Shown: positions 38,125 through 62,508 of the stretch, piece by piece
Layout: each line of letters opens with the position of its first letter
How positions within the stretch are numbered: the stretch's first letter is position 1
Virus record (IMG/VR): IMGVR_UViG_3300025942_000001
Length of the DNA: 64,000 nt
Direction: 5' to 3' (one strand)
Source of the DNA: a virus
Lineage: Duplodnaviria; Heunggongvirae; Uroviricota; Caudoviricetes
Made by a program: the position numbers and the translations under genes
Notes under the pieces: model-generated
What the model was told of the DNA's origin: nothing
The model's database searches: none
Seen by the model: the letters and a program-made list of their open reading frames with translations, nothing else

Positions 38125-38268
38125 ATGGCAAAACAAAAGCTTCCGATGCATGAGCGTAAATGCCATATAAGGGCTTGTTCGAATCCTCCAGTTGGTGTTT
38201 TCATGTTTAGGCAGCAGCTTGTTCCATTTTGTAACACTCATAAGGAGCTGGCGGATAAAGATGGCTAA
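38125..38268 (+). CDS. small Cys/His-rich protein (47 aa), member of a paralogous zinc-ribbon-like family
   Basis: The pattern KCHIRACSNPP...FCNTH resembles that of the ORFs at 48635 and 48815. Confidence 0.35.
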   Translation: MAKQKLPMHERKCHIRACSNPPVGVFMFRQQLVPFCNTHKELADKDG

Positions 38269-38425
38269 ATATGAAATCAGTGTACAAGCGAATCGTACTA
38301 CCGTTGCTACATATAGTACTGATTCGGAAAGCAAGAAAAATACGATTGTTAATCGAGAGAAACGAAAATCAACCAATGATGCCATCTTTGTCAATAATAA
38401 GATGGTATGGAGACGTAGAAAATAA
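38261..38425 (+). CDS. small protein family A member (54 aa)
   Basis: MAKYEISVQANRTTVATYS...NTIVNREKRK is a paralog of the neighbouring small ORFs. Confidence 0.45.
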   Translation: MAKYEISVQANRTTVATYSTDSESKKNTIVNREKRKSTNDAIFVNNKMVWRRRK

Positions 38426-38589
38426 TGGCAACATATAAAATAACTGTAGTCGCTCGTGGTGCCCGCTCTAATGCGGTATACAAAACCGATGATACTTCTC
38501 AAAAAGACAAGATCGTAAGGGATGAATCAAATAAATCTAAAACACTATTGATTTATGTCAATGATACATTGGTTTATAGCAACAACTAG
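38425..38589 (+). CDS. small protein family A member (54 aa)
   Basis: MATYKITVVARGARSNAVYKT... starts in a TAATG overlap with the previous ORF. An RBS GGAG is present. Confidence 0.5.
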   Translation: MATYKITVVARGARSNAVYKTDDTSQKDKIVRDESNKSKTLLIYVNDTLVYSNN

Positions 38590-38613
38590 CTTGACATGAT
38601 CCGTGCAAGCTGC
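38585..38613 (+). promoter_or_regulatory. promoter TTGACA-N17-TAGCAT driving the tRNA cluster
   Basis: It matches the consensus and lies about 50 nt upstream of tRNA-Asn. Confidence 0.55.
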
Positions 38614-38664
38614 TAGCATAGTACACGGAAGCAATGCTTGCCTCACGGTAAGACAGCTTCTTAA

Positions 38665-38736
38665 TCCGGTATGATGTAATTGGCAACATGAGTGGTTGTT
38701 ACCCACTTCTTTTCGGTTCGAATCCGGATATCGGAG
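38665..38736 (+). tRNA. tRNA-Asn (GTT)
   Basis: The acceptor tccggta pairs with tatcgga through one G-U wobble. The D-stem is atgt/acat. The anticodon stem agtgg/ccact is perfect, with loop ttGTTac. The T-arm is ttcgg-ttcgaat-ccgga. Confidence 0.7.
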
Positions 38737-38749
38737 TTTTGATTTATAT

Positions 38750-38827
38750 TCCCCAGTAGCTCAGTTGGCAGTTAGCGTCGGTCTGTTAAACCGAAGGTCA
38801 CAGGATCGAAACCTGTCTGGGGAGCCA
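38750..38827 (+). tRNA. tRNA-Asn (GTT), second copy with an encoded CCA
   Basis: The acceptor tccccag pairs with ctgggga. The anticodon stem is tcggt/accga with loop ctGTTaa. The T-arm is acagg-atcgaaa-cctgt. The 3' end reads gCCA. Confidence 0.65.
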
Positions 38828-38828
38828 A

Positions 38829-38899
38829 GCTCTCGTGGTCTAACGGTAGGATTTAAGATTCTCATTCTTACGGAGCGGGTTCGATTCCCGTCGAGAGTA
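38829..38899 (+). tRNA. tRNA-Glu (CTC)
   Basis: The acceptor gctctcg pairs with cgagagt. The D-arm reads gtct-aacggta-ggat. The anticodon stem is taaga/tctta with loop ttCTCat. The T-arm is gcggg-ttcgatt-cccgt. Confidence 0.65.
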
Positions 38900-38903
38900 C
38901 TTT

Positions 38904-39071
38904 ATGTTTACAAATGATAAAGAAGCACCAGAGCAATGTCAGAGATGTGTTACGGCAAAAGCAGTAATGCGTAAAAGAGTAAAAATCAAGGGTTCATGGA
39001 AATCTCAAAATCTATGTTTAATATGTTTTAAAATGTATAAAGCAGAAGGTAGAACAGAGGGTAATAAATAA
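38904..39071 (+). CDS. small zinc-ribbon protein (55 aa)
   Basis: The Cys pattern is CQRC...CLIC. The start lies 4 nt after the tRNA. Confidence 0.45.
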   Translation: MFTNDKEAPEQCQRCVTAKAVMRKRVKIKGSWKSQNLCLICFKMYKAEGRTEGNK

Positions 39072-39223
39072 TGCCAGCCATTGAAGTATATCAAGGTAAT
39101 AGATTGGCTGCTACATATGGTGCCAATACACCAGAATTAGTTGCTGAGATCGTAAAAAGAGAAAAAGAAAAAGATCAGGTTACTCAGATTAAAGTAAGTG
39201 GAAAAGTCGTCTATAAAAAGTAG
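39071..39223 (+). CDS. small protein family A member (50 aa, ends in VVYKK)
   Basis: MPAIEVYQGNRLAATYG...IKVSGKVVYKK, with an RBS GAGGG. Confidence 0.5.
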   Translation: MPAIEVYQGNRLAATYGANTPELVAEIVKREKEKDQVTQIKVSGKVVYKK

Positions 39224-39229
39224 GATATA

Positions 39230-39505
39230 ATGCATAAGTCTCGGCGTAAGTGGAACTGCTTGGATTGTAATCGTTGTACCAAGCTTGAACATTACTTTGT
39301 AAAATCAGAAATCTGGTTTATTTCCGCCGGGATGCCTGAAAAAGGTATGCTCTGTATAGATTGTATTGAAGTACGTATTGGTAGACAGCTTAATAGCTTT
39401 GACTTTACAGAAGCACATATTAACAACCCAAAGACCAATTCAATGACTGACAAGCTACGTAATCGTATTGGAGCATCAAATGAAGTTCAATTGGCACGAG
39501 CTTGA
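39230..39505 (+). CDS. Cys-rich hypothetical protein (91 aa)
   Basis: Cys pairs CLDCNRC...CIDC. Confidence 0.45.
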   Translation: MHKSRRKWNCLDCNRCTKLEHYFVKSEIWFISAGMPEKGMLCIDCIEVRIGRQLNSFDFTEAHINNPKTNSMTDKLRNRIGASNEVQLARA

Positions 39506-39833
39506 TCGAGCTGGCTTTCTTAGCTGGATGGTAATTAATCTGGTTACCGCACAGCGCAAAGAAAATGAAGTCAGGTTCAGTGAGCTGAATCTTATTACTG
39601 ACTCATTCAAAGATGTTGACATGAAAATTACTATCAATGGCATTGATGTGCCTGTTGATTATTTTGTACAACAGGTTCAAAGCAATATGAAGTATTATGC
39701 TCGTCAAGCGGCAGATGAAATCGCAGGAGATATCACTGACGAAATTGATACCAAGGTCAGAGAAATGCTTGAGGTAATTGAAGAAGCCACAGAGAGTATC
39801 AAAACCAAGGTTGACAGCTTCTTCGATGAGTAG
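39468..39833 (+). CDS. hypothetical protein (121 aa)
   Basis: The ORF has a likely ATG start at 39480. Confidence 0.45.
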   Translation: MEHQMKFNWHELDRAGFLSWMVINLVTAQRKENEVRFSELNLITDSFKDVDMKITINGIDVPVDYFVQQVQSNMKYYARQAADEIAGDITDEIDTKVREMLEVIEEATESIKTKVDSFFDE

Positions 39834-39846
39834 TACACTAGCACTA

Positions 39847-39860
39847 AGCCCGAAAGGGTT
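39847..39860 (+). promoter_or_regulatory. GAAA-tetraloop hairpin abutting the tRNA 5' end
   Basis: agccc-GAAA-gggtt lies 2 nt upstream of tRNA-Glu (TTC). Confidence 0.45.
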
Positions 39861-39862
39861 AC

Positions 39863-39936
39863 GCTCCGTTAGAGTAGCGGTCCATCTCATCTGACTTTCA
39901 TTCAGAAGAACACCGGTTCGAATCCGGTACGGAGTA
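39863..39936 (+). tRNA. tRNA-Glu (TTC)
   Basis: The acceptor gctccgt pairs with acggagt. The anticodon stem tctga/tcaga is perfect, with loop ctTTCat. The T-arm is accgg-ttcgaat-ccggt. Confidence 0.65.
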
Positions 39937-39959
39937 CTTAAACAATAAGAGGGGTTATT

Positions 39960-40124
39960 ATGTCAAGATGGAAAATAACTGTTGTTAATGTTCAAGAAAA
40001 ACGTGTAGCATATGAAACATATAATACTGAGCTTGCAGCTAAAACTGCTGCTGAAATTTGGAATAATAGGCCAAAGATCAAGCAAGTAAGAATTAACGGC
40101 AAGGTCTATAAGAAGTCACGATAA
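39960..40124 (+). CDS. small protein family A member (54 aa)
   Basis: MSRWKITVVNVQEKRVAYETY...INGKVYKKSR, with an RBS AAGAGGG. Confidence 0.5.
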   Translation: MSRWKITVVNVQEKRVAYETYNTELAAKTAAEIWNNRPKIKQVRINGKVYKKSR

Positions 40125-40309
40125 TCTTTTAGAAGTTGGTTGGGTTACCATCGATTGAAAACCAAAACAACCCACGGGACAGTCTGCAAACTGAATAGTA
40201 AGTCTGGAATAAAGCCCGTGCAAAGGCCAGACACAGCGTTTCTTAGAACAATTGCAGTTGTTCTGCTGATTTATTGCGGTGTGCTAAGAGAAACGGCATA
40301 CTAGCTTTA

Positions 40310-40382
40310 CCCCCGTTAGTGTAGTGGCTCAGCACGAGACATTGTCAATGTCTTAGGAGGATTTCAAATATCCTACGGGGGA
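40310..40382 (+). tRNA. tRNA-Asp (GTC)
   Basis: The acceptor cccccgt pairs with acggggg. The D-arm reads gtgt-agtggctca-gcac. The anticodon stem is agaca/tgtct with loop ttGTCaa. The T-arm is aggat-ttcaaat-atcct. Confidence 0.75.
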
Positions 40383-40388
40383 CTTATT

Positions 40389-40547
40389 ATGTCAAAAATA
40401 ATCAGAAAATATGGAATAGAAGCCACTTATGTGCAAGGTGGAAAAGCAACTATCTGGTATTTTACTGAAAACCAGCGGAATAGAATGATATTTCGGATGA
40501 AAGAAATGCCAGACATAACAAGAGTAAGACCAGTGAAGAGGAAATAG
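40389..40547 (+). CDS. small protein (52 aa), possibly a family B member
   Basis: The start lies 6 nt after tRNA-Asp. The sequence MSKIIRKYGIEATYVQGGKATIWYF is basic and has an RBS GGGGGA. Confidence 0.4.
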   Translation: MSKIIRKYGIEATYVQGGKATIWYFTENQRNRMIFRMKEMPDITRVRPVKRK

Positions 40548-40548
40548 T

Positions 40549-40848
40549 ATGACAAAGATTCTTAAGGATTGTTTCAATACTGAGGTTCATCTTGGAGACA
40601 TTGTAGTTTATGGTGCAAATAATGGCTTAAGGATTGGAATAGTAACAAGATTTAATCCGGCGACTTTTCAAATAAAAGCCTTTGAACGAACTGAATACCC
40701 AAGATCGAAGCCGGGGTATTCGAATATTCCGTTTGACTATAGATCATCGCTGATTGCACTAAAGACATTTGATTTAATCAATCAAGACATTCTTACCGAA
40801 GATGAAGCAGAACGAATTCAATTAGACAGAGATCTTAGGTCAATCTAA
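40549..40848 (+). CDS. hypothetical protein
   Basis: ORF of 99 aa. Confidence 0.4.
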   Translation: MTKILKDCFNTEVHLGDIVVYGANNGLRIGIVTRFNPATFQIKAFERTEYPRSKPGYSNIPFDYRSSLIALKTFDLINQDILTEDEAERIQLDRDLRSI

Positions 40849-40850
40849 GG

Positions 40851-41030
40851 ATGGAAATGCCAAGGCGTATTATTATTGGTTATAAAAATGGTAAAAGTCA
40901 GACTCACATTATTAGTGAAGAAAGCAAAGCTAAACTAAAAAGAAAGACCGATCGTGCCCTGATGTCTATGAAGCTAAACGGATATGATAAAATAACCGTC
41001 AATGGTATAGTGAGATACGAAAAATCGTAG
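40851..41030 (+). CDS. small protein family B member (59 aa)
   Basis: MEMPRRIIIGYKNGKSQTHI... is a paralog of the ORF at 62341 (GIIVYYKNGKTLKQV). Confidence 0.45.
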   Translation: MEMPRRIIIGYKNGKSQTHIISEESKAKLKRKTDRALMSMKLNGYDKITVNGIVRYEKS

Positions 41031-41058
41031 TTAAATAAAATATGCTATAATACAGATT

Positions 41059-43200
41059 ATGGTAGAAGCAGAAGATAAATACGGTAGATTCAAAAGAAAT
41101 TTTGATATCGACATTAAATTAATAGAGCAGGCCGCATTCGGCTCAAGCCAACAGATGACCTTGCCTCTTTTTAATGTTGAAAATTATGGTGCTGTCGGTG
41201 ATGGTGTTACTGATGATTACACAGCGATCAAGAACGCTTGGAATGCCATGTTGGCTAGTCCAACTGGTGGACTTGTTTTCTTTCCAAAAGCTGTTACATA
41301 TAAGGTAGTAGCATCACTAGAGAGAATAACACCAACTGCCGATAAAGCTTATGCTCTGTTTCCAATGCCATTAGTATCTTCCGAAGGACCAGTTAAAAAG
41401 ACATATGGTGTACTTGGTGTTGGTGAGGCATATTCTGTACGTGCTGCTAGCTCATTTGGTGTGGATGGCGATGCAAAACAGGTTTCCACCGCAAGTGTAC
41501 TCTTCGTTGATTATGATATTCCATTTGAATGGCACGCAACAAATGGACATCCATCAATAATAGGTTTTCCAGATGCAGATAAAACTGGACACGCTGAAGA
41601 TAATATTGTAAGCAATGTGCACTTCTACGCTAATAATATAATTATGCGTCAACCGGATAACCCTTCAATGGCCGGTATGAATTTGGAACTATGCTCAACA
41701 AGAAAACTAGGCTCAATAAGATTCGATGTTGAATCAGTCCTTGATAACGTTGTAGAGCCAACACATCCAACAGGCGTAGCATTACTTGATTCAAAATCAA
41801 ATAATAATATTGCAATTCCAATTGAATACTTTATTGCAGAAGGTTATTATGCAGGACTACCATATACTGAACATTGTGATATAAGATCAGCTATTATTCT
41901 TAGATGTAAAATAGCTATTCACAATAGAAGATCATGTAGTCATTTTGGTAAAATGGGAATGCTTAAATTAGAGCAGTGTCCATATCAGATGGCTGGATAT
42001 GATCCAGAAGGCGAAGCGCCAAATCTTGGCGTTATTCCTTGGGTCGGCGGAACTGTTGTAATAGATTTTATTGACGTTGAGCATTATGCTTATGAAGCCA
42101 GAGAAGATAATCCAGCCGGTGTGGCATGGATTTATCCACCAGTAAATGGATGTGATATTTACGCACCAAACGGTGGTTTATCTGGTAGTATAAGATCATA
42201 CGCAAGAATAAATTCAGAGCCACCTGCACCAACTGGCATAGGTGTAGCCCCATTTGGGGCCGGATCTGACATCTATGTATTAGGTAATACAGATGGCGGA
42301 CTTGGAATAAGTGGTTTTGGTATTTATTCATTAACAGGAGATCCTATTACGATAGGCGGTGGTTTAAGACATCTTGGTCATGAGCCAACTAATCCTCCAA
42401 CAGCAGCACCCAATGCTCCAACTATTGGTACGGCAACAGCCGGTGTGGAATCTGCTTCTATTACATTTACACCATCTGGATCAGGTCCTAGTGCAACAAG
42501 CTTTAGGGCTATTTCAACTCCAGGTAGCATAACTGCTACTGGATCTTCAAGTCCAATAAACGTAACAGGCCTAACTGCTGGTGTTGAATATACTTTCACA
42601 GTCAGAGCAACCAATATAATTGGTAATTCTGCCGAATCATCTGCTTCTAATGCTGTTACACCTACATCACCAGTGGCACTACCTCAGGATGATTTTAATC
42701 GTTCCAACGGTAACCTAGGAACTGCTGTGGTTGGTGGAGCATGGCAAGGTGATGCATCATGGCAAATCAATTCAAATAAGGCAAGAAATGCATCAACTGG
42801 TGCGGCTTGGCTAGACGCCGGTGTTGATGATATGATAGTAGAAGCAGATATTACATATGATTCTCTTGAATCTGGATTAATAGCCAGAGTAACAGATGCA
42901 AACAATCTATTGTATCTTGACGTAACACATAATAATGGTACAACGGCATCTATTAACATATATAAGCGAGTAAGTGGGACATTCACTGCAATAGGAACCG
43001 CTGACTATGTTACAACAAGTATTGGAGCTGTATTAAATTTGAAGCTTGAATGCTCTGGAAGTAATATAAAGGCCTATGTAAACGATGTGTTGATCGTCTC
43101 CGCAACTGACTCTGTACAAACAGGCCAGGGTGCTGGTATAATATGTCTTGCAGGTCCAAATCCTACGATCTTCGATAACTTTGTAGTAACTGCACCATAA
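41059..43200 (+). CDS. Tailspike or depolymerase-like protein. It has an N-terminal pectate-lyase-type beta-helix, fibronectin-type-III repeats and a C-terminal lectin-like domain.
   Basis: The N-terminus NVENYGAVGDGVTDDYTAIKNAW matches the signature of the pectate-lyase-3 or GH28 beta-helix. The middle shows a fibronectin type III (FN3) pattern, TPSGSGPSATSFRAISTPGS...YTFTVRATNIIGNS. Confidence 0.55.
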   Translation: MVEAEDKYGRFKRNFDIDIKLIEQAAFGSSQQMTLPLFNVENYGAVGDGVTDDYTAIKNAWNAMLASPTGGLVFFPKAVTYKVVASLERITPTADKAYALFPMPLVSSEGPVKKTYGVLGVGEAYSVRAASSFGVDGDAKQVSTASVLFVDYDIPFEWHATNGHPSIIGFPDADKTGHAEDNIVSNVHFYANNIIMRQPDNPSMAGMNLELCSTRKLGSIRFDVESVLDNVVEPTHPTGVALLDSKSNNNIAIPIEYFIAEGYYAGLPYTEHCDIRSAIILRCKIAIHNRRSCSHFGKMGMLKLEQCPYQMAGYDPEGEAPNLGVIPWVGGTVVIDFIDVEHYAYEAREDNPAGVAWIYPPVNGCDIYAPNGGLSGSIRSYARINSEPPAPTGIGVAPFGAGSDIYVLGNTDGGLGISGFGIYSLTGDPITIGGGLRHLGHEPTNPPTAAPNAPTIGTATAGVESASITFTPSGSGPSATSFRAISTPGSITATGSSSPINVTGLTAGVEYTFTVRATNIIGNSAESSASNAVTPTSPVALPQDDFNRSNGNLGTAVVGGAWQGDASWQINSNKARNASTGAAWLDAGVDDMIVEADITYDSLESGLIARVTDANNLLYLDVTHNNGTTASINIYKRVSGTFTAIGTADYVTTSIGAVLNLKLECSGSNIKAYVNDVLIVSATDSVQTGQGAGIICLAGPNPTIFDNFVVTAP

Positions 43201-43208
43201 TTTAATAT

Positions 43209-43301
43209 GGAGAAATGCCCGAGTCAGGTTTAAAGGGTTCGCCTGCTAAGCGAATGATCCTAGTGAAATGGGGTCCAGGGGTTCAAATCCCCTTTTCTCC
43301 A
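43209..43301 (+). tRNA. tRNA-Ser (GCT), class II
   Basis: The acceptor ggagaaa pairs with tttctcc. The anticodon stem is ttcgc/gcgaa with loop ctGCTaa. It has a long variable arm. The T-arm is agggg-ttcaaat-cccct. Confidence 0.7.
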
Positions 43302-43524
43302 CGAGTTAGTTGTAGATAAACTCCATTAGCAGGAATCTACCGTGAAGTCCAGCGATGTTCAATTTACCGCATTTTGCAGCGGAGTTCTGAGAATGTATCG
43401 AGTGGCTTCCGTCAAGGAAGGTAGCGGGATGGTCCCAAACTGGATTTGAACTCCAGGCCTGGTGAAAGCCAGAGGTTTCGATTACTTTACTTTCCGCTCA
43501 TAAAGTAACTATCAAAGGAATAAA

Positions 43525-43752
43525 ATGATTTGGTTTTTGCTGTCTGTATACCTTATGATCGCAGCAGCTTGTTATTATAAGTTTGCTCCGGAAGTTACCA
43601 AGGGCGTAATTGATGATTGTGATAGTGAAGAAGAAATTAAATTCGTCAAGAAAACTGGCCCTGCGGTTCTATCTTTTGTATACTTATTTTGGCCTGTTAT
43701 TTTTATCTTTGTTATTCTAGTTATGATTTGTGTTTTAATCAAAAGAAACTAA
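43525..43752 (+). CDS. small membrane protein with two TM helices
   Basis: Hydrophobic stretches MIWFLLSVYLMIAAAC and VIFIFVILVMICVLI. Confidence 0.4.
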   Translation: MIWFLLSVYLMIAAACYYKFAPEVTKGVIDDCDSEEEIKFVKKTGPAVLSFVYLFWPVIFIFVILVMICVLIKRN

Positions 43753-43766
43753 AGAAAGATAGTTAG

Positions 43767-44201: not shown

Positions 44202-44406
44202 TGGCGTATGGGCTGTTTTTGTAAAATGGCCCGATCAAGACTGGAAAAGATATTCAAAGCTGTATACAAGAAAACATTATGCTCAGAATAACATCCCATA
44301 TTATGCAGAATATAATCCAATTGAAAACATTTGGGTTGTTCAAGGTGCTATGTATGCATACAAGCTAATGTATAACCAATTTGATTGGCAGGATGCAAGT
44401 GATTGA
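44194..44406 (+). CDS. hypothetical protein
   Basis: ORF of 70 aa. Confidence 0.3.
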   Translation: MDDGVWAVFVKWPDQDWKRYSKLYTRKHYAQNNIPYYAEYNPIENIWVVQGAMYAYKLMYNQFDWQDASD

Positions 44407-55522: not shown

Positions 55523-55525
55523 TAA

Positions 55526-57436
55526 ATGCTACCTACTAAAACAGATATTCGTGTAAGTGGTGATTTGGGCGGGGAAAGAGTACAGATGCGCCTTGATGCC
55601 GATAGTACAGCGCATCTTATGTCACTATTGACAGATCTATATTCTGACCCGCTTCTAGCAGTAATCAGAGAATATAGTACAAATGCGTGGGATTCTCATG
55701 TAGCTGCTGGTGTAAATAAGCCAATTGAGGTAACCACGCCAAACTATCTAACATCAACATTCCGTGTCAAGGATTCTGGTCTTGGTATGGATGCAAATGA
55801 TATTCGTGAAATCTATTCAAGCTATGGTGCTTCTACCAAGCGATCAAGCAATGATCAGGTCGGTATGCTTGGTCTTGGTAGTAAGAGTGGTTTGACTTAT
55901 ACTGATCAATTTAATGTTATCGGCATTAAGAATGGTGTAAAGACAAGTGTTGCCGTTTCACGTTCTGGTGATGGTGGCGGTGTCATGGAAATCATTGATG
56001 CTTCTCCCACCAATGAACCTAATGGTGTTGAGATTATTGTTCCTATTAAAAGCAACAGCAATATTTTGAGTAAAGCTGAACAGTTCTTCAGATTTTGGGA
56101 ACCAGGCAGGGTTTTGCTTAATGGTAAAGAGCCGCATTACATCTGGGAAGATGCAACCCAGGTCGGCAGATTTTATATCATCAATGATACAACCGACTAT
56201 GTTGTCATGGGTAACGTGGCTTATCCGGTAAAGAATGAGATTACCGGACAAGAGGGTTATAATCGTGAACGTGCTGTCGTGAAAGTTGACATCGGTGATG
56301 TTACTTTTACTCCTTCACGTGAATCATTGCAGATGACTCTTACTACTAAGAAAATGCTTGAAAGTCTACGTGAAGAATTCGCAGCCGAAGTAGTCAAAGA
56401 AATTGAAGTAAAGCTTTCAGCCTGTAACACCTACAAAGAAGCCTATAAAATGTTCAAGTCTTTAAGAAACATGAACACTTTTACCAGGCATATGAACAAT
56501 GCAACCTATAAGGGTGCAAAGTACATCGAATCTTATAGGTTCGATTGGCATGTCAGCGGTTTTCATCGTGATCAAATCAGTGCGGTGGAAGCTAGAAACT
56601 CCAGTCTAGGTTATGGTCTTGATAACATAGTTATTATTCATGGCTTTGATTGTGCTAGACTGAATGCCCCACAGAAAAAGAAAATAAAACTGTATCTTGA
56701 GGACAATGGAATTCTTACTGGACAAGCTGTAGTCTTTGTCAATAAAAACAAGCCTGATTCAGTATGGTTCAGTGAATGTCATCAGGTTGAATGGAAGACA
56801 ATCAAGGCTATCAAGTTGGAGTCCACGCGGGTAGTAAGAACACAAGACACTTGGGATGTTCTTCGTTCCCGTGGTAATAGAGATTACAATCAGATTGTAG
56901 ACAATACAAAGAAGCTTATTTATGCTTCCGGCGCTGAGATCAATGCTGATGCTGATCCTATTCTTGATATTCTTATTAATAACGATACTCAATTTCTTTT
57001 GGTTGGTAAAAATCGTCAAGACAAGTTCATCAAGGCTAATCCAAAAGCCGTATATTGGCTTGACGAGGCTAAGACCAGAGTGCTACACTATATTGACAAC
57101 GTAGCAAAAGATGACATTAAACTGATCGACCAAGATATGAATCACATTGATATTCTATCAAGACTGGATATGTCAAAAATTGATGATCCGGAAGTTAGTA
57201 GTATTGTATTCAGTGGTTCAGTAAATTCCCAGCATAAGGCACAAGAGCGATATAGCAATTATCGTAGATTGGCATCAAGGCTAAAGGTTGCGGGGATGCC
57301 AGAACGTCTTGGTCGTGGAAGTACAAATCTACTTGATAATTATCCTATGCTTACACAGCTTGGATATAATTGTAGATATATTCCAGAAGATCACATCTAT
57401 GCTTACATGAATGCCATTTATGATTTAGGCCTATAA
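55526..57436 (+). CDS. Hsp90/HtpG-like GHKL ATPase-domain protein (636 aa)
   Basis: The N-box reads LMSLLTDLYSDPLLAVIREYSTNAWDS, close to the Hsp90 segment [27 protein letters not shown]. The G1 box reads KDSGLGM and the G2 box reads GMLGLGSKSG. Confidence 0.5.
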   Translation: MLPTKTDIRVSGDLGGERVQMRLDADSTAHLMSLLTDLYSDPLLAVIREYSTNAWDSHVAAGVNKPIEVTTPNYLTSTFRVKDSGLGMDANDIREIYSSYGASTKRSSNDQVGMLGLGSKSGLTYTDQFNVIGIKNGVKTSVAVSRSGDGGGVMEIIDASPTNEPNGVEIIVPIKSNSNILSKAEQFFRFWEPGRVLLNGKEPHYIWEDATQVGRFYIINDTTDYVVMGNVAYPVKNEITGQEGYNRERAVVKVDIGDVTFTPSRESLQMTLTTKKMLESLREEFAAEVVKEIEVKLSACNTYKEAYKMFKSLRNMNTFTRHMNNATYKGAKYIESYRFDWHVSGFHRDQISAVEARNSSLGYGLDNIVIIHGFDCARLNAPQKKKIKLYLEDNGILTGQAVVFVNKNKPDSVWFSECHQVEWKTIKAIKLESTRVVRTQDTWDVLRSRGNRDYNQIVDNTKKLIYASGAEINADADPILDILINNDTQFLLVGKNRQDKFIKANPKAVYWLDEAKTRVLHYIDNVAKDDIKLIDQDMNHIDILSRLDMSKIDDPEVSSIVFSGSVNSQHKAQERYSNYRRLASRLKVAGMPERLGRGSTNLLDNYPMLTQLGYNCRYIPEDHIYAYMNAIYDLGL

Positions 57437-57464
57437 AATAAACCAACCCGAAAGGTAAATAAAC

Positions 57465-58322
57465 ATGTCAAGAGCGGTAAAATATAATCTAGTATGCAAT
57501 GAATCAGATAATATTACAGTTTTCGTGGCCGGTGAAATGTATGTCGCGGATTCAGATCACAATCCTAACTTTTCAGAGATCGTAGAAAAAGTACTGGCTG
57601 ACGATGTTTCAGTAGTAGAATTATTCGATCTAGAGAAGACAGTTAGTAAGAAGTTTGAAAGACTATCAGAGCGAGTTGTTGTTCGTAATGGCAATATCTA
57701 CTTTGATGGATCACCTGTTAACGATGTTCTTGGTAAGCAAGTTCTAAGATTCGTTGAAGATGACGTAGAAGATTGGCAGCCTCTTGTTCTATTCTGGGAA
57801 AATCTAGCTCAGAATCCCAATGAGCATTCACGTGAACAACTTTACAGTTGGCTTAATGATCGTAAATTCCAGATTTCTAAGAATGGTAACATTGTTGGAT
57901 TTAAGGGTGTCAAGGTAGTTAATGGTGAATATCGTTCAATTCACGCCGGTCCGGCAATTGTGGATGACGTCGAAATGAATGGATATATTCCTAATGCCAT
58001 TGGTTCAGTAATTGAAATGCCTAGAGCAAATGTTCAGTCTAATTCAGCCGTAGGTTGTTCAACTGGTCTACATGTTGGTACATATGACTATGCGAAGGAT
58101 TTTGCTCAGGGCGCGGTGCTAACTGTTTCAGTTAATCCTCGTGATGTTGTATCAGTTCCCTCTGATTGCAATGCAGCCAAGCTTAGAGTATGTCGTTATC
58201 GTGTAGTCAATGCAACAGCGGTGGAATGGTCAAGTGCTGTCTCTGACGTTGAAGATGATGAGTCTGATTATTATGACGACGGCTATGAATATGAAGACAC
58301 CAATGACTATTGGACTTCCTAA
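57465..58322 (+). CDS. hypothetical protein with an acidic C-terminal tail
   Basis: ORF of 285 aa. The putative RBS ccgaaagg lies upstream. Confidence 0.4.
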   Translation: MSRAVKYNLVCNESDNITVFVAGEMYVADSDHNPNFSEIVEKVLADDVSVVELFDLEKTVSKKFERLSERVVVRNGNIYFDGSPVNDVLGKQVLRFVEDDVEDWQPLVLFWENLAQNPNEHSREQLYSWLNDRKFQISKNGNIVGFKGVKVVNGEYRSIHAGPAIVDDVEMNGYIPNAIGSVIEMPRANVQSNSAVGCSTGLHVGTYDYAKDFAQGAVLTVSVNPRDVVSVPSDCNAAKLRVCRYRVVNATAVEWSSAVSDVEDDESDYYDDGYEYEDTNDYWTS

Positions 58323-58337
58323 TGCTATAATTGGTTT

Positions 58338-58847
58338 ATGATTAAAACCCCTAAACCTGGAGATTACGGATTAACGACTATTGGTGGCGTCCTAGGCTTC
58401 TTTGTAAGCTTAGGACAACATCTAGCTGGTGACTCAAGTAAGTATACTCATGCTTTTATTGTACTTGATGATAATACAGTCATGGCAGCTCAACCTGGCG
58501 GTGCTAGAATAGACAAGCTTAGTGACTACACCAATCGTGCAATCTACTCAGGCGCGAACTTGACAGACACACAGCGACACGCTATAGTAGAGCAAGCAAG
58601 AGCGCTTGAAGGTATTCCATACAGCTTTTTGGACTATCTAGCAATTGCCTTAGCAAGATTTGGTATTAAGCCAAAATGGTTAACTAATTTTATAGCCAAC
58701 AAGAAGCATATGATCTGTTCTCAACTTGTTGACGAAGTTTATCGACATGCTGGAATACAACTTTTTAATGATGGAAGATTACCCCAAGAAGTTACACCAG
58801 GCGATTTATTATATATTTTAGCCGGGGAACAAGACTGGATTGAATAG
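58338..58847 (+). CDS. hypothetical protein, possibly a permuted papain-fold (His-before-Cys, NlpC/P60-like) hydrolase
   Basis: A His in YTHAFIV precedes a Cys in MICSQLV. This is weak support. Confidence 0.3.
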   Translation: MIKTPKPGDYGLTTIGGVLGFFVSLGQHLAGDSSKYTHAFIVLDDNTVMAAQPGGARIDKLSDYTNRAIYSGANLTDTQRHAIVEQARALEGIPYSFLDYLAIALARFGIKPKWLTNFIANKKHMICSQLVDEVYRHAGIQLFNDGRLPQEVTPGDLLYILAGEQDWIE

Positions 58848-59013
58848 TGTCCTTTACACAGAAGTGTAGATATTGTAATGAAAAGCTAACTTCAGTTAGT
58901 AGAAATACTTTTAATATGACAATGAAAAATCATGTTATGAATAGATGTAAGAAAGCTACATCGGCTATTAAAAGAGTATGGATAGATCAATAAAATAAGC
59001 CCACTTGGGCTAT

Positions 59014-59087
59014 ACCCCGTTAGCTCATGCGGACAGAGCGACAGCCTTCTAAGCTGTAGGTAATTGGTTCAAATCCAATACGGGGTG
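59014..59087 (+). tRNA. tRNA-Arg (TCT)
   Basis: The acceptor accccgt pairs with acggggt. The D-arm reads gctc-atgcggaca-gagc. The anticodon stem is acagc/gctgt with loop ctTCTaa. The T-arm is attgg-ttcaaat-ccaat. Confidence 0.7.
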
Positions 59088-59228
59088 CAAGTAGAATTCT
59101 AGATATCTACGAGTCAATATGGCGGTTCGAATCCGTAAGGGAAACATATTGATGACAGAGTAAACACTTTCCAGCGATGTTATGCGTAGTGAACGTGTAA
59201 TATATCGAGTGGCTGTGTTGCTCTTTAA

Positions 59229-59300
59229 CTGCCTATGTCCGAGTGGTTTAGGAAATCGTCTGCAAAACGATTCACGCCGGTTCAATTCCGGCTAGGCAGT
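59229..59300 (+). tRNA. tRNA-Cys (GCA)
   Basis: The acceptor ctgccta pairs with taggcag. The anticodon stem is atcgt/acgat with loop ctGCAaa. The T-arm is gccgg-ttcaatt-ccggc. The discriminator is T, as is typical for Cys. Confidence 0.65.
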
Positions 59301-59315
59301 CTTTTGAGGTGAAGA

Positions 59316-59618
59316 ATGACAAGAGAACAAATACTAGCTGATATACTTACTATGATAGAAGCAATGCCGGATTATTACAGTCTATCCGCATTGCAAACTA
59401 TAGCAGCTAATAAACAATATACAATATTACAACTGGCAGAACACCCGCTTGGTGAAGGTAAATTTAGACTGGATTATGTAGTAAATAAAGCCAGCACCCC
59501 GGATAGATTTATGGTACAGATTTTCGCTGATGGTGTTGGTGGAGATTTCTATAATACATATTCAGATATAACAGATGTTGTTATTGTAGAATACAATAGT
59601 TCACAATATGACGTATAA
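59316..59618 (+). CDS. hypothetical protein
   Basis: ORF of 100 aa. Confidence 0.4.
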   Translation: MTREQILADILTMIEAMPDYYSLSALQTIAANKQYTILQLAEHPLGEGKFRLDYVVNKASTPDRFMVQIFADGVGGDFYNTYSDITDVVIVEYNSSQYDV

Positions 59619-59675
59619 CATGTATATATGATACACTGTTCATGGAATTAGCTTTCCGAAAGGATAGGTGACAAC

Positions 59676-59747
59676 ATGGACCCGATATTCTGGTTACTAA
59701 TCATTCTGGTAATTCTAGCTATTATCTTTGTTGCAAGACGAGTATAA
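59676..59747 (+). CDS. tiny hydrophobic peptide (23 aa)
   Basis: MDPIFWLLIILVILAIIFVARRV, with an RBS AAAGGATAGG. Confidence 0.25.
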   Translation: MDPIFWLLIILVILAIIFVARRV

Positions 59748-59749
59748 TG

Positions 59750-59770
59750 GAAGCTAGCCGAAAGGCTAGC
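59750..59770 (+). repeat. 21-nt hairpin repeat gaagctagccGAAAggctagc (copy 2)
   Basis: It is identical to 53558-53578. Confidence 0.6.
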
Positions 59771-59876
59771 GAGGCCCTTTAGTTTAATAGCAAAACCACG
59801 GTGTTACATACCGTAGTAGAGGGGGCAGAACCTTCAAGGGCTACAATATTGTTTAAGATGTGGTATAATCTTAAAC

Positions 59877-60314
59877 ATGAAAGAGTGTAAGATATGTAAA
59901 AATGTAAAGTCTTTAGAAGATTTTCATAATAATAAGAATTTCCCCGATGGGAAAATGAGAGAATGTAAACCTTGCAATAATTCTAGAGCATCCGCATGGG
60001 GTAGAAATAATCCAGATAAAGTTAAATCCCCAGAAGCTTATCTAAAAAGAAATGCAATGCGACACGGGATTACTCAAGAGGAATTCCTATCTCTAAGAGA
60101 TTCACAAGATAATTTATGTGCTATATGTAAAATTTCAATACCTACATCAATAGATCATAATCATAATTGCTGTAATGGTACATATTCTTGTGGTTCTTGT
60201 ATAAGAGGATTATTATGTGGCAAGTGTAATAGGGGTATAGGTCATTTTAATGATGATATTGCGTTATTAAGTAACGCAATAGATTATTTAAATAAATTTA
60301 AATCTATACCTTAA
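59877..60314 (+). CDS. HNH endonuclease
   Basis: CAICK...IDHNHNCC...CGKCNRGIGHF. A TGgTATAAT extended -10 lies just upstream. Confidence 0.55.
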   Translation: MKECKICKNVKSLEDFHNNKNFPDGKMRECKPCNNSRASAWGRNNPDKVKSPEAYLKRNAMRHGITQEEFLSLRDSQDNLCAICKISIPTSIDHNHNCCNGTYSCGSCIRGLLCGKCNRGIGHFNDDIALLSNAIDYLNKFKSIP

Positions 60315-60364
60315 TACCGTAGTCAAAGGTTCGATTCCTTTAGGGGCCACTCATATTACTGAAA

Positions 60365-60586
60365 ATGAGGATAAAAATGGCATATCATTTAAGTAGTGAT
60401 GCTAAAAAACTATGTTTGCTAAAATTTACACTTGCAAATTTGAATTCAAAAGATCCAAATAAAGATGCAGTTGCTAAAGAATTAGCATACATGGAGAAAA
60501 AGGTTAGAAAGAGTGTTGGTCGCAGAGACTGGCCTTTATTAAAAGCGGCAATTGATGGTTACTATAATATGACCTACGGAAAGTAG
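60365..60586 (+). CDS. hypothetical protein
   Basis: ORF of 73 aa. Confidence 0.35.
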   Translation: MRIKMAYHLSSDAKKLCLLKFTLANLNSKDPNKDAVAKELAYMEKKVRKSVGRRDWPLLKAAIDGYYNMTYGK

Positions 60587-60592
60587 TTTAAA

Positions 60593-60739
60593 ATGAATAA
60601 TAGCTTTAGATTTGCAATCTTGGTTGGCCTGCAAAGACTTCCAAACTTATACGAGGGTACTGTGTTTGGTGCTGAAAAAGCCAAACGGAGAGCCAAAGGC
60701 AAGCTAGCACGTAAGGCCCGGCGGCTAAACAGAGCTTGA
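60593..60739 (+). CDS. small basic protein (48 aa)
   Basis: The C-terminus is Arg- and Lys-rich. Its 3' end overlaps a promoter element. Confidence 0.25.
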   Translation: MNNSFRFAILVGLQRLPNLYEGTVFGAEKAKRRAKGKLARKARRLNRA

Positions 60740-60764
60740 CAAGTCTCCAGAGACTTGCTAGACT
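60736..60764 (+). promoter_or_regulatory. promoter TTGACA-N17-TAGACT
   Basis: The elements are exact matches to the consensus. Confidence 0.5.
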
Positions 60765-60905
60765 ACTAACTACAAGGTGGACGAAAGCCACTAGGCCACT
60801 GGTCTGGCAGGCCCGATGGGAAGTCTTAAATGGTGTGCAGCATTTATTAAACTGAAAGCTGCTGTATCCTCGGCACCAGCCTTGTTTCTAACTTGAGGAG
60901 AGAAA

Positions 60906-61064
60906 ATGCGCGAGAGAAGAGAATGTTTTCTTTGTGGTGATGTTGGAACTGTAGCCAAGAGACAAGATGATCATACCGGAAAATGGTTTTGTGCATCTAA
61001 AAAGACTGGCGACAAGAAAACTTGTCTAGCTATTGCTAGACAAACCATGCAAAGAAAGAAATAA
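60906..61064 (+). CDS. small Cys-rich protein (52 aa)
   Basis: CFLCGD...FCASKK...C. An RBS GGAGAG is present. Confidence 0.4.
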   Translation: MRERRECFLCGDVGTVAKRQDDHTGKWFCASKKTGDKKTCLAIARQTMQRKK

Positions 61065-61184
61065 TAACTTAATGGTACTGTAGCCCAAAGAAAGAGGCAG
61101 CGGGATATAAACCGTGACAGTGTGAAAGCTAGTCAGGTGTGCGCTTTGTTTTATCAAAGCAATGACCTCACCAGTACCATGTAA

Positions 61185-61277
61185 GCCCCCTTGGCGTAAT
61201 CTGGCAGCCGCGCTGCACTCAAAATGCAGTTTCTTCGGAAGTACCGGTTCGAATCCGGTAGGGGGCACTTGACTTAG
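61185..61277 (+). tRNA. tRNA-Leu (CAA), class II
   Basis: The acceptor gccccct pairs with agggggc. The anticodon stem is ctgca/tgcag with loop ctCAAaa. It has a long variable arm. The T-arm is accgg-ttcgaat-ccggt. Confidence 0.6.
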
Positions 61278-61303
61278 AATGCATAACGTGGTATTCTAAG
61301 TTT

Positions 61304-61753
61304 ATGTTTAAAACGTGCTCAAAATGCCTCAGTGTAAAAGATATAAATCTATTCCCTTGGAAAAGTAAGTCTCTTGGGAAAAAATCATCTTATTGCAAAG
61401 ACTGTCAAAAAGCTTTATCTAAAGATCATTATATTAGAAATAAGGCTTTATATTCAAATAAAGCAAAAATTAATAACAAATCTTATAAAACAAGAAATTA
61501 TCAATACGTATTAGAACATCTTCTACATAATCCATGTGTAGATTGTGGAGAGACGGATGTAGAAGTATTACAATTTGATCATATAGAAATGATAGGATCA
61601 TCTGGTAAGCGTATAGGCCACTATATGGCAGGCTCAATAGAGGCTTTGCAAAAAGAAATAAATAAATGTCAAGTAAGATGTGGAAATTGTCATATCAGAA
61701 GAACCAGATCACAAATGGGATGGTTCAGAATAAGCCCCGATGGCGGAAATTAG
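61304..61753 (+). CDS. HNH endonuclease (paralog of the 49871 gene)
   Basis: CVDCGETDVEVLQFDHIE...CGNCH. Confidence 0.65.
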   Translation: MFKTCSKCLSVKDINLFPWKSKSLGKKSSYCKDCQKALSKDHYIRNKALYSNKAKINNKSYKTRNYQYVLEHLLHNPCVDCGETDVEVLQFDHIEMIGSSGKRIGHYMAGSIEALQKEINKCQVRCGNCHIRRTRSQMGWFRISPDGGN

Positions 61754-61815
61754 GTATACGCACCATACTTAGAATGTGGCTCTTCGGAATGCAGGTTCGA
61801 ATCCTGTTCGGGGTA
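61734..61815 (+). tRNA. tRNA-Leu (TAG), class II, overlapping the 3' end of the HNH gene
   Basis: The acceptor gccccga pairs with tcggggt through a G-U wobble. The D-stem is gcg/cgc. The anticodon stem is ccata/tgtgg with loop ctTAGaa. The variable arm is 11 nt. The T-arm is gcagg-ttcgaat-cctgt. Confidence 0.45.
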
Positions 61816-61834
61816 CGTTATATTTTAACAATAT

Positions 61835-61906
61835 ATTCGGTTGGACTAACGGCTAAGTCGCCTTGCCCTAGGTTAGGAGATGCGAGTACGATTCTCGTAC
61901 CGAATA
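61835..61906 (+). tRNA. tRNA-like gene with anticodon CTA (amber-suppressor-like). It may be a pseudo-tRNA.
   Basis: The acceptor attcggt pairs with accgaat. The D-stem is gact/agtc. The anticodon loop is ccCTAgg, with C at position 33. The T-loop is tacgatt rather than ttcgatt. One anticodon-stem pair is a T-T mismatch. Confidence 0.35.
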
Positions 61907-61911
61907 CTATA

Positions 61912-61982
61912 CCTCTCGAATTGTAATGGTTGCATACAGAATTGTGACTTCTGTGGAGCGGATTCGATTTCCGTCGGGGGGA
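61912..61982 (+). tRNA. tRNA-His (GTG) with discriminator A73 and no encoded G-1
   Basis: The anticodon stem cagaa/ttctg is perfect, with loop ttGTGac. The T-arm is gcgga-ttcgatt-tccgt. The acceptor cctctcg pairs with cgggggg through two G-U wobbles. The D-stem is weak. Confidence 0.45.
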
Positions 61983-62018
61983 CTTTATTGGTTATCACGT
62001 AATCTCCGGAGGTTGATA

Positions 62019-62222
62019 ATGAGCTGGTCAACAGGTGACAAATCAAATAGAAGTCTTAAAAAGACGGAAAAACATCCTTGTGATGTATGTGGTTTGTCAG
62101 TAGATCATTATATTGATGGAACAATTAGTAAACATAAGGTCTTTCTTTATAAGAAACTAAAGAATGGTTCTTATCAGAAAACTAGTAATTGGGCCTATTG
62201 CGATAATAAGAAGTGGCGATAA
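62019..62222 (+). CDS. zinc-ribbon protein (67 aa)
   Basis: An RBS GGAGG is present. The Cys pattern is CDVCG...YCDN. Confidence 0.4.
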   Translation: MSWSTGDKSNRSLKKTEKHPCDVCGLSVDHYIDGTISKHKVFLYKKLKNGSYQKTSNWAYCDNKKWR

Positions 62223-62341
62223 TGGCTTCGAAACAAAAGTGTGCTAAGTGTGGTAAGAATGTCATGCATTATGATGACCGTTCAATAGAAGTACATAAGC
62301 CACCTGGAGAGACCTTCTATTGTAATAGGAAGACTTATTAA
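62222..62341 (+). CDS. small zinc-ribbon protein (39 aa)
   Basis: KCAKCGKN...FYCN. Confidence 0.3.
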   Translation: MASKQKCAKCGKNVMHYDDRSIEVHKPPGETFYCNRKTY

Positions 62342-62508
62342 TGAGTAAACCTGGATATGGAATTATTGTTTACTATAAAAACGGTAAGACTCTAAAGCAG
62401 GTAGTAGCCAACAATCCGCATACTAGAAATAGAGTTATTAAACTATGGCTTAAGAAACCAGATGTTGATAAAGTAGAAAAGTATACTGAAAAAGATTATT
62501 TACCATAA
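62341..62508 (+). CDS. small protein family B member (55 aa)
   Basis: MSKPGYGIIVYYKNGKTLKQVV is a paralog of the ORF at 40851. Confidence 0.45.
   Translation: MSKPGYGIIVYYKNGKTLKQVVANNPHTRNRVIKLWLKKPDVDKVEKYTEKDYLP

What the first reader, a model, noticed from the sequence alone, without database searches (positions are those of the whole stretch)
38261..62508. Multi-copy family of small proteins of about 50 aa (at least nine paralogs) interleaved with the tRNA genes
- The ORFs are 38261, 38425, 39071, 39960, 52171 and 52467 in subfamily A, and 40851, 62341 and possibly 40389 in subfamily B.
- Subfamily A has an N-terminal beta-strand-like motif Y-K/E-I-T/S-V-V and a C-terminal V-x-Y-K-K. 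Examples are MATYKITVVAR..., MSRWKITVVNV...KVYKK, ...KVVYKK and ...VQYKK.
- Subfamily B members share I-I-V/I-G/Y-Y-K-N-G-K.
- Most have their own RBS and start 1-25 nt after a tRNA 3' end or overlap one another, in TAATG style.
- So many paralogous micro-proteins wedged between tRNAs is unusual and suggests a shared function. Candidates are a tRNA- or RNA-binding role, anti-defence, or guidance of processing.
Basis: seen in the sequence. Interest (0 to 1): 0.75.

Follow-up and report, generated by a model that had tools for sequence, protein, structure and literature searches.

The report
Expanded small basic protein family among phage tRNAs
The tRNA-rich region of this uncultivated ~138-kb phage holds about 13 real, individually conserved genes for ~50-residue, strongly basic proteins from an uncatalogued family (or two distantly related ones); their function is unknown and RNA binding is only my best guess.

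Summary
All nine ORFs exist at the stated coordinates and are real genes. Pooled pN/pS against orthologues in a ~92%-identical genome is 0.21. A profile built only from sequences outside the window scores seven window ORFs at 21-62 bits, and no shuffle in 2000 reaches those scores.

- Family A: 38261, 38425, 39071, 39960.
- Family C: 40389, 46121, 47803, 49409, 52171, 52467, 62341.
- Marginal: 40851 and 46829.
- Four members were missed: 46121, 46829, 47803, 49409.

A and C share a predicted beta-beta-alpha-beta(-beta) topology and a weak profile-profile link (P 5.5e-4). Every member is basic (median pI ~10).

Nothing significant or recurrent matches in Pfam or PHROGs, and INPHARED has no hit. 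A scan of 1.84 billion representatives gives 37 stand-alone hits. The four contexts recovered all lie in tRNA islands of ~138-kb phages distantly related to Streptomyces BE/Stanwilliamsviridae phages. Three of 12 checkable copies are swapped out in the near-identical relative, one for a homing-endonuclease cassette.

Function is unproven. I favour small RNA or nucleic-acid binders, with anti-defence binders as the main rival. Separately, ORFs start exactly at tRNA 3' ends far more often than chance.

The parts
38261..38425 (+). Family A member (54 aa), tandem partner of 38425; overlaps the upstream Cys-rich ORF 38125-38268 by 8 nt
   Evidence: phmmer E 1e-7 to 38425. Orthologue in L001 with pN/pS 0.30. 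A-profile 72.9 bits.
38425..38589 (+). Family A member (54 aa); TAATG overlap with 38261
   Evidence: Orthologue in L001 with pN/pS 0.16.
39071..39223 (+). Family A member (50 aa); TAATG overlap with the Cys-rich ORF 38904-39071. Replaced by two other A paralogues in L001.
   Evidence: (P0004, P0007).
39960..40124 (+). Family A member (54 aa), 22 nt after tRNA-Glu(ttc). This tRNA+ORF pair is conserved in L001 and L004.
   Evidence: pN/pS 0.10 against L001 and 0.27 against L004. AF2 model beta-beta-alpha-beta-beta, pLDDT 66.
40389..40547 (+). Family C member (52 aa), 5 nt after tRNA-Asp; the SD-like GGGGGA lies inside the tRNA acceptor stem
   Evidence: 62.2 bits to the external-only HMM, 0/2000 shuffles..
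40851..41030 (+). Marginal or bridging member (59 aa; the likely start is the second ATG, at 40857): N-terminal half resembles C, C-terminal 'ITVNGxVxY' resembles A
   Evidence: 8.4 bits to the external C HMM, 0/2000 shuffles. hhalign P 0.0016 to C and 0.0011 to A. Orthologue in L001 with pN/pS 0.10.
46121..46330 (+). Family C member (69 aa from the ATG; an alternative GTG start lies at 46142). Absent from this slot in L001/L005.
   Evidence: 34.5 bits..
46829..46990 (+).
   Evidence: 7.6 bits, 9/2000 shuffles. 23.8 bits to profile A8, which includes its near-orthologue. pN/pS 0.19.
47803..47997 (+).
   Evidence: phmmer E 6e-5 to 52171. 21.3 bits external HMM. pN/pS 0.18.
49409..49570 (+).
   Evidence: AF2 pLDDT 84, beta(2-4) beta(9-15) beta(21-26) alpha(29-40) beta(45-52). 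52.4 bits. Orthologues in L005 and L004.
52171..52332 (+). Family C member (53 aa) with its own SD, downstream of the Ro60 gene and its terminator hairpin. In L005 this slot holds a LAGLIDADG gene plus a 103-aa ORF.
   Evidence: 53.4 bits..
52467..52619 (+). Family C member (50 aa); GTG start immediately after a tRNA-like element (52373-52466)
   Evidence: 23.4 bits.. Orthologue in L005 has the same GTG junction. pN/pS 0.35.
62341..62508 (+).
   Evidence: 37.8 bits. Homologue P0022 in another metagenome.
37633..61982 (+). The tRNA island that holds the family: 17 ARAGORN tRNAs, 2 further Rfam tRNAs (46418-46488, 61912-61982), and genes for Ro60, Thg1-like, Macro, Band_7, metallophosphoesterase, rIIA/rIIB-like and HNH proteins. 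The array continues beyond the window end.
38125..38268 (+). Cys-rich (C..C..C..H) small ORF of a second multi-copy family (also 48277, 48635, 48815), overlapping the start of A member 38261
   Evidence: jackhmmer. phmmer.

Best explanation
**Shown (about 0.9 confidence).** These are real, separately maintained paralogous genes. Each encodes a single-domain, ~50-65-aa, strongly basic protein with a predicted beta-hairpin / alpha-helix / beta-strand(s) mini-fold.
- They form two robust families: A with 4 copies and C with 7 copies plus 2 marginal ones.
- A and C are probably distantly related.
- Neither family matches anything in Pfam or PHROGs.
- All four homologue contexts recovered lie in a clade of ~138-kb uncultivated, tRNA-rich phages distantly related to Streptomyces cluster BE / Stanwilliamsviridae phages.
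- The family grew by local tandem duplication inside the accessory tRNA / RNA-repair island. It is on the same strand as the tRNAs, tightly packed with them and presumably co-transcribed.
- Copies are exchanged as cassettes between near-identical genomes; one of the three swaps involves a homing-endonuclease gene, and such genes differ between the genomes elsewhere in the island.

**Inferred (about 0.35-0.4).** Each paralogue acts as a small stoichiometric nucleic-acid binder, most likely of RNA (phage tRNAs, pre-tRNAs or other small RNAs). Binding would use the exposed face of the small sheet, with its conserved aromatic residues and a near-invariant Arg, plus a Lys/Arg-rich C-terminal tail. 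Paralogues would have diverged to different targets. This would stabilise, shield or hand over RNAs in an island otherwise devoted to RNA supply and repair.
For: **Real genes.** Pooled pN/pS is 0.21, and all hits lie on the coding strand.

**Real family.**
- External-only HMM gives 21-62 bits with 0/2000 shuffles.
- 37 stand-alone 49-67-aa homologues turn up in 1.84e9 representatives, all with the same motif.

**Fold.** AF2 pLDDT 84 for C and 66 for A, with the same element order.

**A-C link.**
- hhalign P 5.5e-4, collinear.
- After the nine C-type ORFs (seven clear, two marginal), the next best of 108 window genes against the C HMM are three of the four A members.
- L008 10710 hits both profiles.
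- The slot after tRNA-Asp holds a C member in the window and an A member in L004.

**Basic character.** 52 of 53 members have pI >9, median ~10, mean net charge +6. Window proteins longer than 90 aa have median pI 5.9.

**Neighbourhood.** Ro60/TROVE, Thg1-like, Macro and metallophosphoesterase in the window; RlaP, Rnl1 and PNKP in L008; members in tRNA-rich stretches of four lineages.

**Individually conserved paralogues.** Orthologues are 48-98% identical while paralogues are 15-40% identical.

**Tandem pairs.** 38261/38425, L004 15228/15403 and L014 3675/3850.

Against: - No direct evidence of RNA or DNA binding.
- High pI is common among the other small ORFs of this region (median 9.4).
- Presence/absence turnover of 3 of 12 checkable copies between ~92%-identical genomes is the pattern usually seen for counter-defence cargo.
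- Proximity to tRNAs is shared by unrelated genes, so it may say nothing specific about this family.
- The A-family model is of low confidence, and A-C homology is not established (hhalign probability 30%).
Confidence: 0.4

Rival explanations
1. They are counter-defence or host-takeover binders. Each paralogue is a small stoichiometric inhibitor of a host protein, for example an anticodon nuclease, another RNA-targeting toxin or another immune effector. This would be analogous to T4 Dmd, or to the anti-retron genes in the tRNA-rich island of T5-like phages.
For: - Cassette-like turnover between near-identical genomes; in one of the three swaps a homing-endonuclease gene takes the slot.
- Many divergent paralogues.
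- Location beside tRNAs and RNA-repair enzymes that counter tRNA-cleaving defences.
- Precedent: the tRNA-rich region of T5-like phage SP15 is an anti-defence island encoding Rad and other retron blockers (10.1101/2023.03.15.532788, read).
Against: - Uniformly strong positive charge. From my own knowledge, not tested here: known inhibitors of nucleases are typically acidic nucleic-acid mimics.
- Orthologues evolve under purifying selection, not diversifying selection (pN/pS 0.10-0.48).
- No sequence similarity to any catalogued family.
Confidence: 0.3
2. They are small DNA-binding proteins, acting as nucleoid-associated or transcription-modulating factors of the early or middle programme.
For: Basic character. 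Weak fold matches to phi29 histone-like p6 and to a viral DNA-binding domain, LANA. They lie in a region dense with small genes.
Against: No helix-turn-helix, ribbon-helix-helix or AbrB signature is found by Pfam. Thirteen divergent copies is unusual for an architectural protein. There is no evidence of DNA targets.
Confidence: 0.1
3. They are accessory cargo or remnants of mobile homing-endonuclease cassettes, multiplied by homing rather than by selection for a shared cellular function.
For: HNH, EndoVII-type and LAGLIDADG genes are polymorphic in exactly this region. One replaces the 52171 slot, and one sits next to the 40389 orthologue.
Against: Most members are not adjacent to an endonuclease gene. 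Orthologues keep their syntenic slots across lineages as diverged as L004 and are under purifying selection. There is no similarity to endonuclease domains.
Confidence: 0.07
4. There is no real family: these are chance ORFs or Lys/Thr/Val-rich compositional look-alikes filling the gaps between tRNAs.
For: Individual pairwise similarities between A and C, and those of 40851 and 46829, are weak.
Against: Shuffle controls, pN/pS 0.21, 37 independent homologues with a fixed motif, and a confident AF2 model.
Confidence: 0.02

Closest known systems
Small accessory ORFs of the tRNA-rich 'anti-defence island' of T5-like phages (Rad, ORF71-73 of phage SP15; 10.1101/2023.03.15.532788)
   Same: Small genes are interleaved with phage tRNA genes in a variable accessory region, and tRNAs and proteins there act together against RNA-targeting host immunity.
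   Different: Rad is 189 aa with a TOPRIM/RNase-type domain. There is no sequence or fold relation to the ~50-aa beta-beta-alpha-beta proteins here. No multi-copy family is reported there, and function here is untested.
T4 Dmd antitoxin (PDB 5hy3_B)
Small hypothetical genes in the tRNA regions of Streptomyces cluster BE / Stanwilliamsviridae phages (e.g. Blueeyedbeauty; PMC5764925)
   Same: These are the nearest cultured relatives (rIIA 38-39% aa identity). The island has the same architecture: Ro-like protein, Band-7, rIIA/rIIB, phosphoesterase, RNA ligase/PNK, and dozens of tRNAs separated by 40-70-aa hypothetical genes.
   Different: Neither the family A nor the family C profile finds a member in 42 kb of that region, and tblastn of a C member finds nothing in 50,697 phage records.
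RRM / ferredoxin-like RNA-binding domains (e.g. MEC-8 RRM, ribosomal bS6)
   Different: Only about half of the beta-alpha-beta-beta-alpha-beta unit is present. There are no RNP motifs and no sequence relation.

Membership tests
Any Pfam-A family (including DUF2963/MORN-like 'YYKNGK', MobI, N4_GP8) | Score at or above the curated gathering threshold | tested here: not met
   The best hits are all below cut-off: MobI 20.6 vs 26.6 bits, DUF2963 15 vs 22.6. No family recurs among the 43 C or 10 A members.
Any PHROG (phage protein family) | Significant or recurrent profile match | tested here: not met
   Best E 0.008. 39 different PHROGs are each hit by one member only.
T4 Dmd-like antitoxins | Sequence homology to Dmd | tested here: not met
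   PDB sequence searches with profiles A4, A5 and A8 do not retrieve Dmd at E <=10.
T4 Dmd-like antitoxins | Same fold at a significant level | tested here: inconclusive
T4 Dmd-like antitoxins | Binds and inhibits RnlA/LsoA-type RNase toxins | not testable with these tools
   Needs co-expression and binding assays.
Protein G B1 / beta-grasp Ig-binding domains | Sequence relation to GB1 | tested here: not met
RRM / ferredoxin-like RNA-binding domains | Complete beta-alpha-beta-beta-alpha-beta unit with RNP1/RNP2 motifs | tested here: not met
AbrB/SpoVT/MazE swapped-hairpin domains (considered for family A because of its '...IYVNDxxVY' C-terminus) | Pfam SpoVT/AbrB profile match or fold match | tested here: not met
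New family proposed here (family C) | Stand-alone 49-69 aa; motif [YF]G-h-x-h-x-[YW]..G...W[YF].[TD]...R[DN]...V..V; basic tail | tested here: met
   Seven window ORFs score 21-62 bits to an external-only HMM. Alignment A8.
New family proposed here (family A) | M-x-x-[YW]-K-I-T-V ... Y-x-T ... helix ... I-x-V-N-[GD]-K-x-V-Y | tested here: met
   Four window ORFs, with members in L001, L004 and L008.

The most novel reading that the evidence does not exclude
The paralogues are dedicated partners of individual phage tRNAs or pre-tRNAs. They would act as chaperones, as shields against anticodon nucleases, or as guides for processing. Their synthesis would be coupled to tRNA maturation: excision of the upstream tRNA creates a leaderless or near-leaderless mRNA, a bacterial-virus version of mitochondrial 'tRNA punctuation'. 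Several family members start at the very next base after a tRNA (L004 9101, 10598, 15228; L008 10001; window 52467 after a tRNA-like element).
Probability: 0.1. Interest if true: 0.85.

Novelty: new member of a known kind. Interest (0 to 1): 0.5.

Why it matters
**What it adds.** Phage tRNA arrays are now understood partly as counter-measures to tRNA-cleaving immunity, yet the many tiny genes between the tRNAs are almost entirely uncharacterised. This work defines a clean, testable family:
- a fixed motif;
- a confident fold model for family C;
- about 13 copies in one genome;
- conserved synteny across four lineages.

The proteins sit among Ro60, Thg1-like, Macro, RNA-ligase and PNK genes.

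**If they bind RNA**, they would be a new class of virus-encoded small RNA-binding proteins. **If they bind host proteins**, they would be a reservoir of new counter-defence inhibitors.

**Side observation.** ORFs start exactly at tRNA 3' ends about 20-fold more often than chance. This gives a concrete, testable hypothesis about how polycistronic tRNA-mRNA transcripts are expressed in these phages.

Tried and rejected
- **Megablast** of 15 kb against 50,697 phage records gave no match.
- **tblastn** of a C member against the same records gave only E 7 noise.
- **Pfam and PHROGs**, run on individual members and on all 43 + 10 members, gave nothing significant or recurrent.
Single distant members P0045 and P0034 found nothing in viral contigs or genome contigs.
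- **Word-index homologue searches** returned only near relatives.
- **Protein G B1 similarity** (E 0.036) is rejected as chance, because it vanishes with the deeper profile.
- **Three long hits** in the representative search (P0021, P0026, P0037) are rejected as internally repetitive proteins that match only short pieces of the profile.
- **BFVD Foldseek** gave no hit at E <=0.001. The best matches are uncharacterised ~50-aa phage proteins.
- **Streptomyces phage Blueeyedbeauty**: no members in 42 kb of its tRNA region.
- **L006/L007** (distant Ro60 loci) hold no convincing members.
- **Literature searches** found no description of this family, or of tRNA-punctuated mRNAs in phages, in the held library.
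- **HNH-type beta-beta-alpha-metal nuclease** was considered and dropped, because no conserved His or metal ligands appear in alignments A4 and A8.

Full report
**Setting.** The window is phage-like. All ORFs of 100 aa or more but three lie on the + strand, and GC is 38.7%. It has no near-identical record among 50,697 sequenced phages.

From about 37.6 kb to the window end, the sequence is a tRNA island.
- It holds 17 ARAGORN tRNAs, plus two more found by Rfam at 46418-46488 and 61912-61982.
- Among the tRNAs are genes for Ro60/TROVE, a Thg1-like enzyme, a Macro domain, Band_7, a metallophosphoesterase and rIIA/rIIB-like proteins.
- Two paralogous HNH endonuclease genes (49871, 61304) and an Endonuclease_7-type gene (59877) also lie there.
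- The array continues past the window with at least nine more tRNAs.
- By rIIA, the nearest cultured relatives are Streptomyces cluster BE phages (Stanwilliamsviridae), at only 38-39% aa identity. Their tRNA region has the same architecture (PMC5764925).

**The observation.** All nine ORFs exist as described.
- Family A is 38261, 38425, 39071 and 39960.
- Family C is 52171, 40389, 49409, 46121 and 47803. After iteration with relatives, 62341 and 52467 join it.
- 46829 is marginal.
- 40851 pairs weakly with 62341 (E 0.011). Its N-terminal half aligns with C and its C-terminal 'ITVNGxVxY' with A, each at hhalign P ~1e-3.

**Is it more than chance or composition?** Yes, on two independent tests.
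- An HMM built only from 35 sequences outside the window scores seven window ORFs at 21-62 bits, with 0 of 2000 shuffles reaching those scores. 40851 scores 8.4 bits (0/2000) and 46829 scores 7.6 bits (9/2000).
- Orthologues in a ~92%-identical genome (the JGI contig of 139,461 bp; L001 and L005) give pooled pN/pS of 0.21 over nine ORFs. Two orthologue pairs with the more diverged L004 give 0.27 and 0.48.

**Distribution.**
- Word-index searches found only near relatives.
- A full HMMER scan of 1.84 billion representative proteins with the C profile found 40 hits at E <=1e-3. Of these, 37 are stand-alone 49-67-aa proteins with the same motif, [YF]G[IVL]x[VI]x[YW]..G...W[YF].[TD]...R[DN]...V..V..I.R followed by a basic tail. 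The other three are repeat artefacts.
- For ten of these homologues I looked up cluster sizes and contigs. The clusters hold 1-4 sequences. Longest contigs run from 1.4 kb to ~138 kb, and two of the ten lie on ~138-kb contigs.
- The four contexts I could read have the same island synteny and several members among tRNAs. L004 has 4 A members and 6 C members plus a fragment. L008 has 1 A and 2 C among 20 tRNAs, beside RlaP, Rnl1 and PNKP. L014 has 5 C among 18 tRNAs.
- There are no members in 42 kb of the Blueeyedbeauty island, none in INPHARED by tblastn, and no significant or recurrent match in Pfam or PHROGs.

**Structure.**
- AlphaFold2 on C member 49409, with a 10-sequence alignment, gives pLDDT 84 and the order beta(2-4), beta(9-15), beta(21-26), alpha(29-40), beta(45-52).
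- A member 39960 gives beta-beta-alpha-beta-beta at pLDDT 66.
- BFVD gives no hit at E <=0.001, and its best matches are uncharacterised ~50-aa phage proteins.
- A marginal sequence match to protein G B1 disappeared with the deeper profile.

**Are A and C one superfamily?** Suggestive, not proven.
- hhalign P improves from 0.004 to 5.5e-4 with the deeper C alignment, and the alignment is collinear across strand-strand-helix-strand.
- Three of the four A members are the next-best scorers of 108 window genes against the external C HMM.
- L008 10710 hits both profiles.
- The slot after tRNA-Asp holds a C member in the window and an A member in L004.
- The predicted topologies agree.

**Evolutionary behaviour.**
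- Paralogues are very divergent (15-40% identity), whereas each has conserved orthologues. That indicates separate, maintained roles.
- Tandem pairs point to local duplication: 38261/38425, L004 15228/15403 and L014 3675/3850.
- Three of the 12 window copies that could be checked are absent from the same slot in the ~92%-identical relative.
  - 39071 is replaced by two other A paralogues.
  - 46121 is replaced by a different gene.
  - 52171 is replaced by a LAGLIDADG gene plus a 103-aa ORF.
- HNH and EndoVII genes are also polymorphic between the two genomes. The island is therefore a recombination and homing hot spot.

**Relation to tRNAs.**
- In the window, only 39960 (22 nt), 40389 (5 nt) and 52467 (0 nt, after a tRNA-like element) directly follow a tRNA. 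Most other members follow another small ORF, often with a TAATG overlap.
- Abutting a tRNA is a property of the whole island, not of this family alone.
- Across 57 tRNAs in the window, L004, L008 and L012, 12 are followed by an ORF of 40 aa or more whose start codon is the very next base (...N73-C|ATG). About 0.5 would be expected by chance.
- Four of those twelve are family members: L004 9101, 10598 and 15228, and L008 10001.

**Mechanism.**
- Shown: real proteins, a shared mini-fold, basic character (52 of 53 have pI >9, median ~10, mean net charge +6), and residence in an RNA supply and repair island.
- Inferred: they are small nucleic-acid, most likely RNA, binders with paralogue-specific targets.
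- The main rival is that they are counter-defence protein binders. Cassette turnover supports it, as does the T5-like precedent of anti-defence genes in the tRNA-rich region (10.1101/2023.03.15.532788). The uniformly basic charge and purifying selection weigh against it.
- I cannot separate these two readings computationally, and I put them at about 0.4 and 0.3.

**Novelty.** This is an uncatalogued protein family (or two) of a known general kind: lineage-restricted, expanded small accessory proteins of phages. It is moderately interesting in itself. It would be more so if linked to tRNA biology, or to the tRNA-abutting start codons.

Noticed in passing
window 48276/48277 and 53655/53656; L004 9100/9101, 10597/10598, 15227/15228; L008 5654/5655, 10000/10001 and others: Start codons sit exactly at tRNA 3' ends (...N73-C|ATG). 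Of 57 tRNAs, 12 have an ORF of >=40 aa starting at the next base and 19 have one within 0-5 nt. Random positions in the same regions start such an ORF 0.9% of the time. No CCA is encoded, and there is no room for an SD outside the tRNA. This suggests leaderless mRNAs made by tRNA 3' processing, in the style of mitochondrial 'tRNA punctuation'.
   Followed up: partly
window 52373-52466: A tRNA-like element lies just downstream of the Ro60/TROVE gene and ORF 52171. It scores 23.8 bits (E 0.026) to the tRNA-Sec model, below gathering, and ARAGORN does not call it. It is conserved in L005. It may be the Y-RNA-like partner of Ro60. ORF 52467 starts with GTG at its last base +1.
   Followed up: partly
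window 38125-38268, 48277-48429, 48635-48814, 48815-48955; L004 8563, 14948, 16365: A second multi-copy family of 39-59-aa Cys-rich (C..C...C..H, zinc-ribbon-like) proteins occupies the same island. Three copies are interleaved with the three tRNA-Lys genes (one abuts the first, two follow the second), and one overlaps the start of A member 38261. Other Cys-rich ORFs (38904, 62222, 61926) precede 39071 and 62341.
   Followed up: partly
window 53656-53802, 53804-53962; L008 11838, 12350, 12694, 12867, 13015, 13241: By eye, a possible third set of small Lys-rich ORFs that look helical or coiled-coil is also interleaved with tRNAs. The only test was a weak phmmer link between the two window copies, E 0.02-0.03.
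   Followed up: no
window 49871-50299, 59877-60314, 61304-61753; L001 12331-12807; L005 6815-7243: Homing-endonuclease genes differ between ~92%-identical genomes. The HNH gene (49871) and the EndoVII-type gene (59877) are only in the window. LAGLIDADG genes are only in the relative. One of those is inserted within the 3' part of tRNA-Asp, leaving a duplicated tRNA 3' fragment in front of the 40389 orthologue.
   Followed up: partly
window 61835-61907: ARAGORN calls a tRNA with anticodon CTA (reported as 'Pyl'), which could be an amber suppressor; Rfam does not list it at gathering. Six of 13 family genes end in TAG, against 6 of 50 genes of >=100 aa (Fisher P 0.012). TAG read-through of 39071 would fuse it in frame to the next ORF, 39230-39505.
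   Followed up: partly
window 41059-43200: A 713-aa protein with a pectate-lyase-like N-terminus and an fn3 domain, probably a tail fibre or depolymerase, sits in the middle of the tRNA island. It is absent from the near-identical relative L001.
   Followed up: no
window 44194-44406 and 44616-44828: Another paralogous pair of 70-aa Trp/Tyr-rich proteins (phmmer E 1e-6) lies in a run of overlapping small genes upstream of the Macro-domain gene.
   Followed up: no
window 52117-52158: A perfect 17-bp hairpin followed by a T-run, an intrinsic-terminator-like site, lies directly after the Ro60 stop codon and before the SD of ORF 52171.
   Followed up: no
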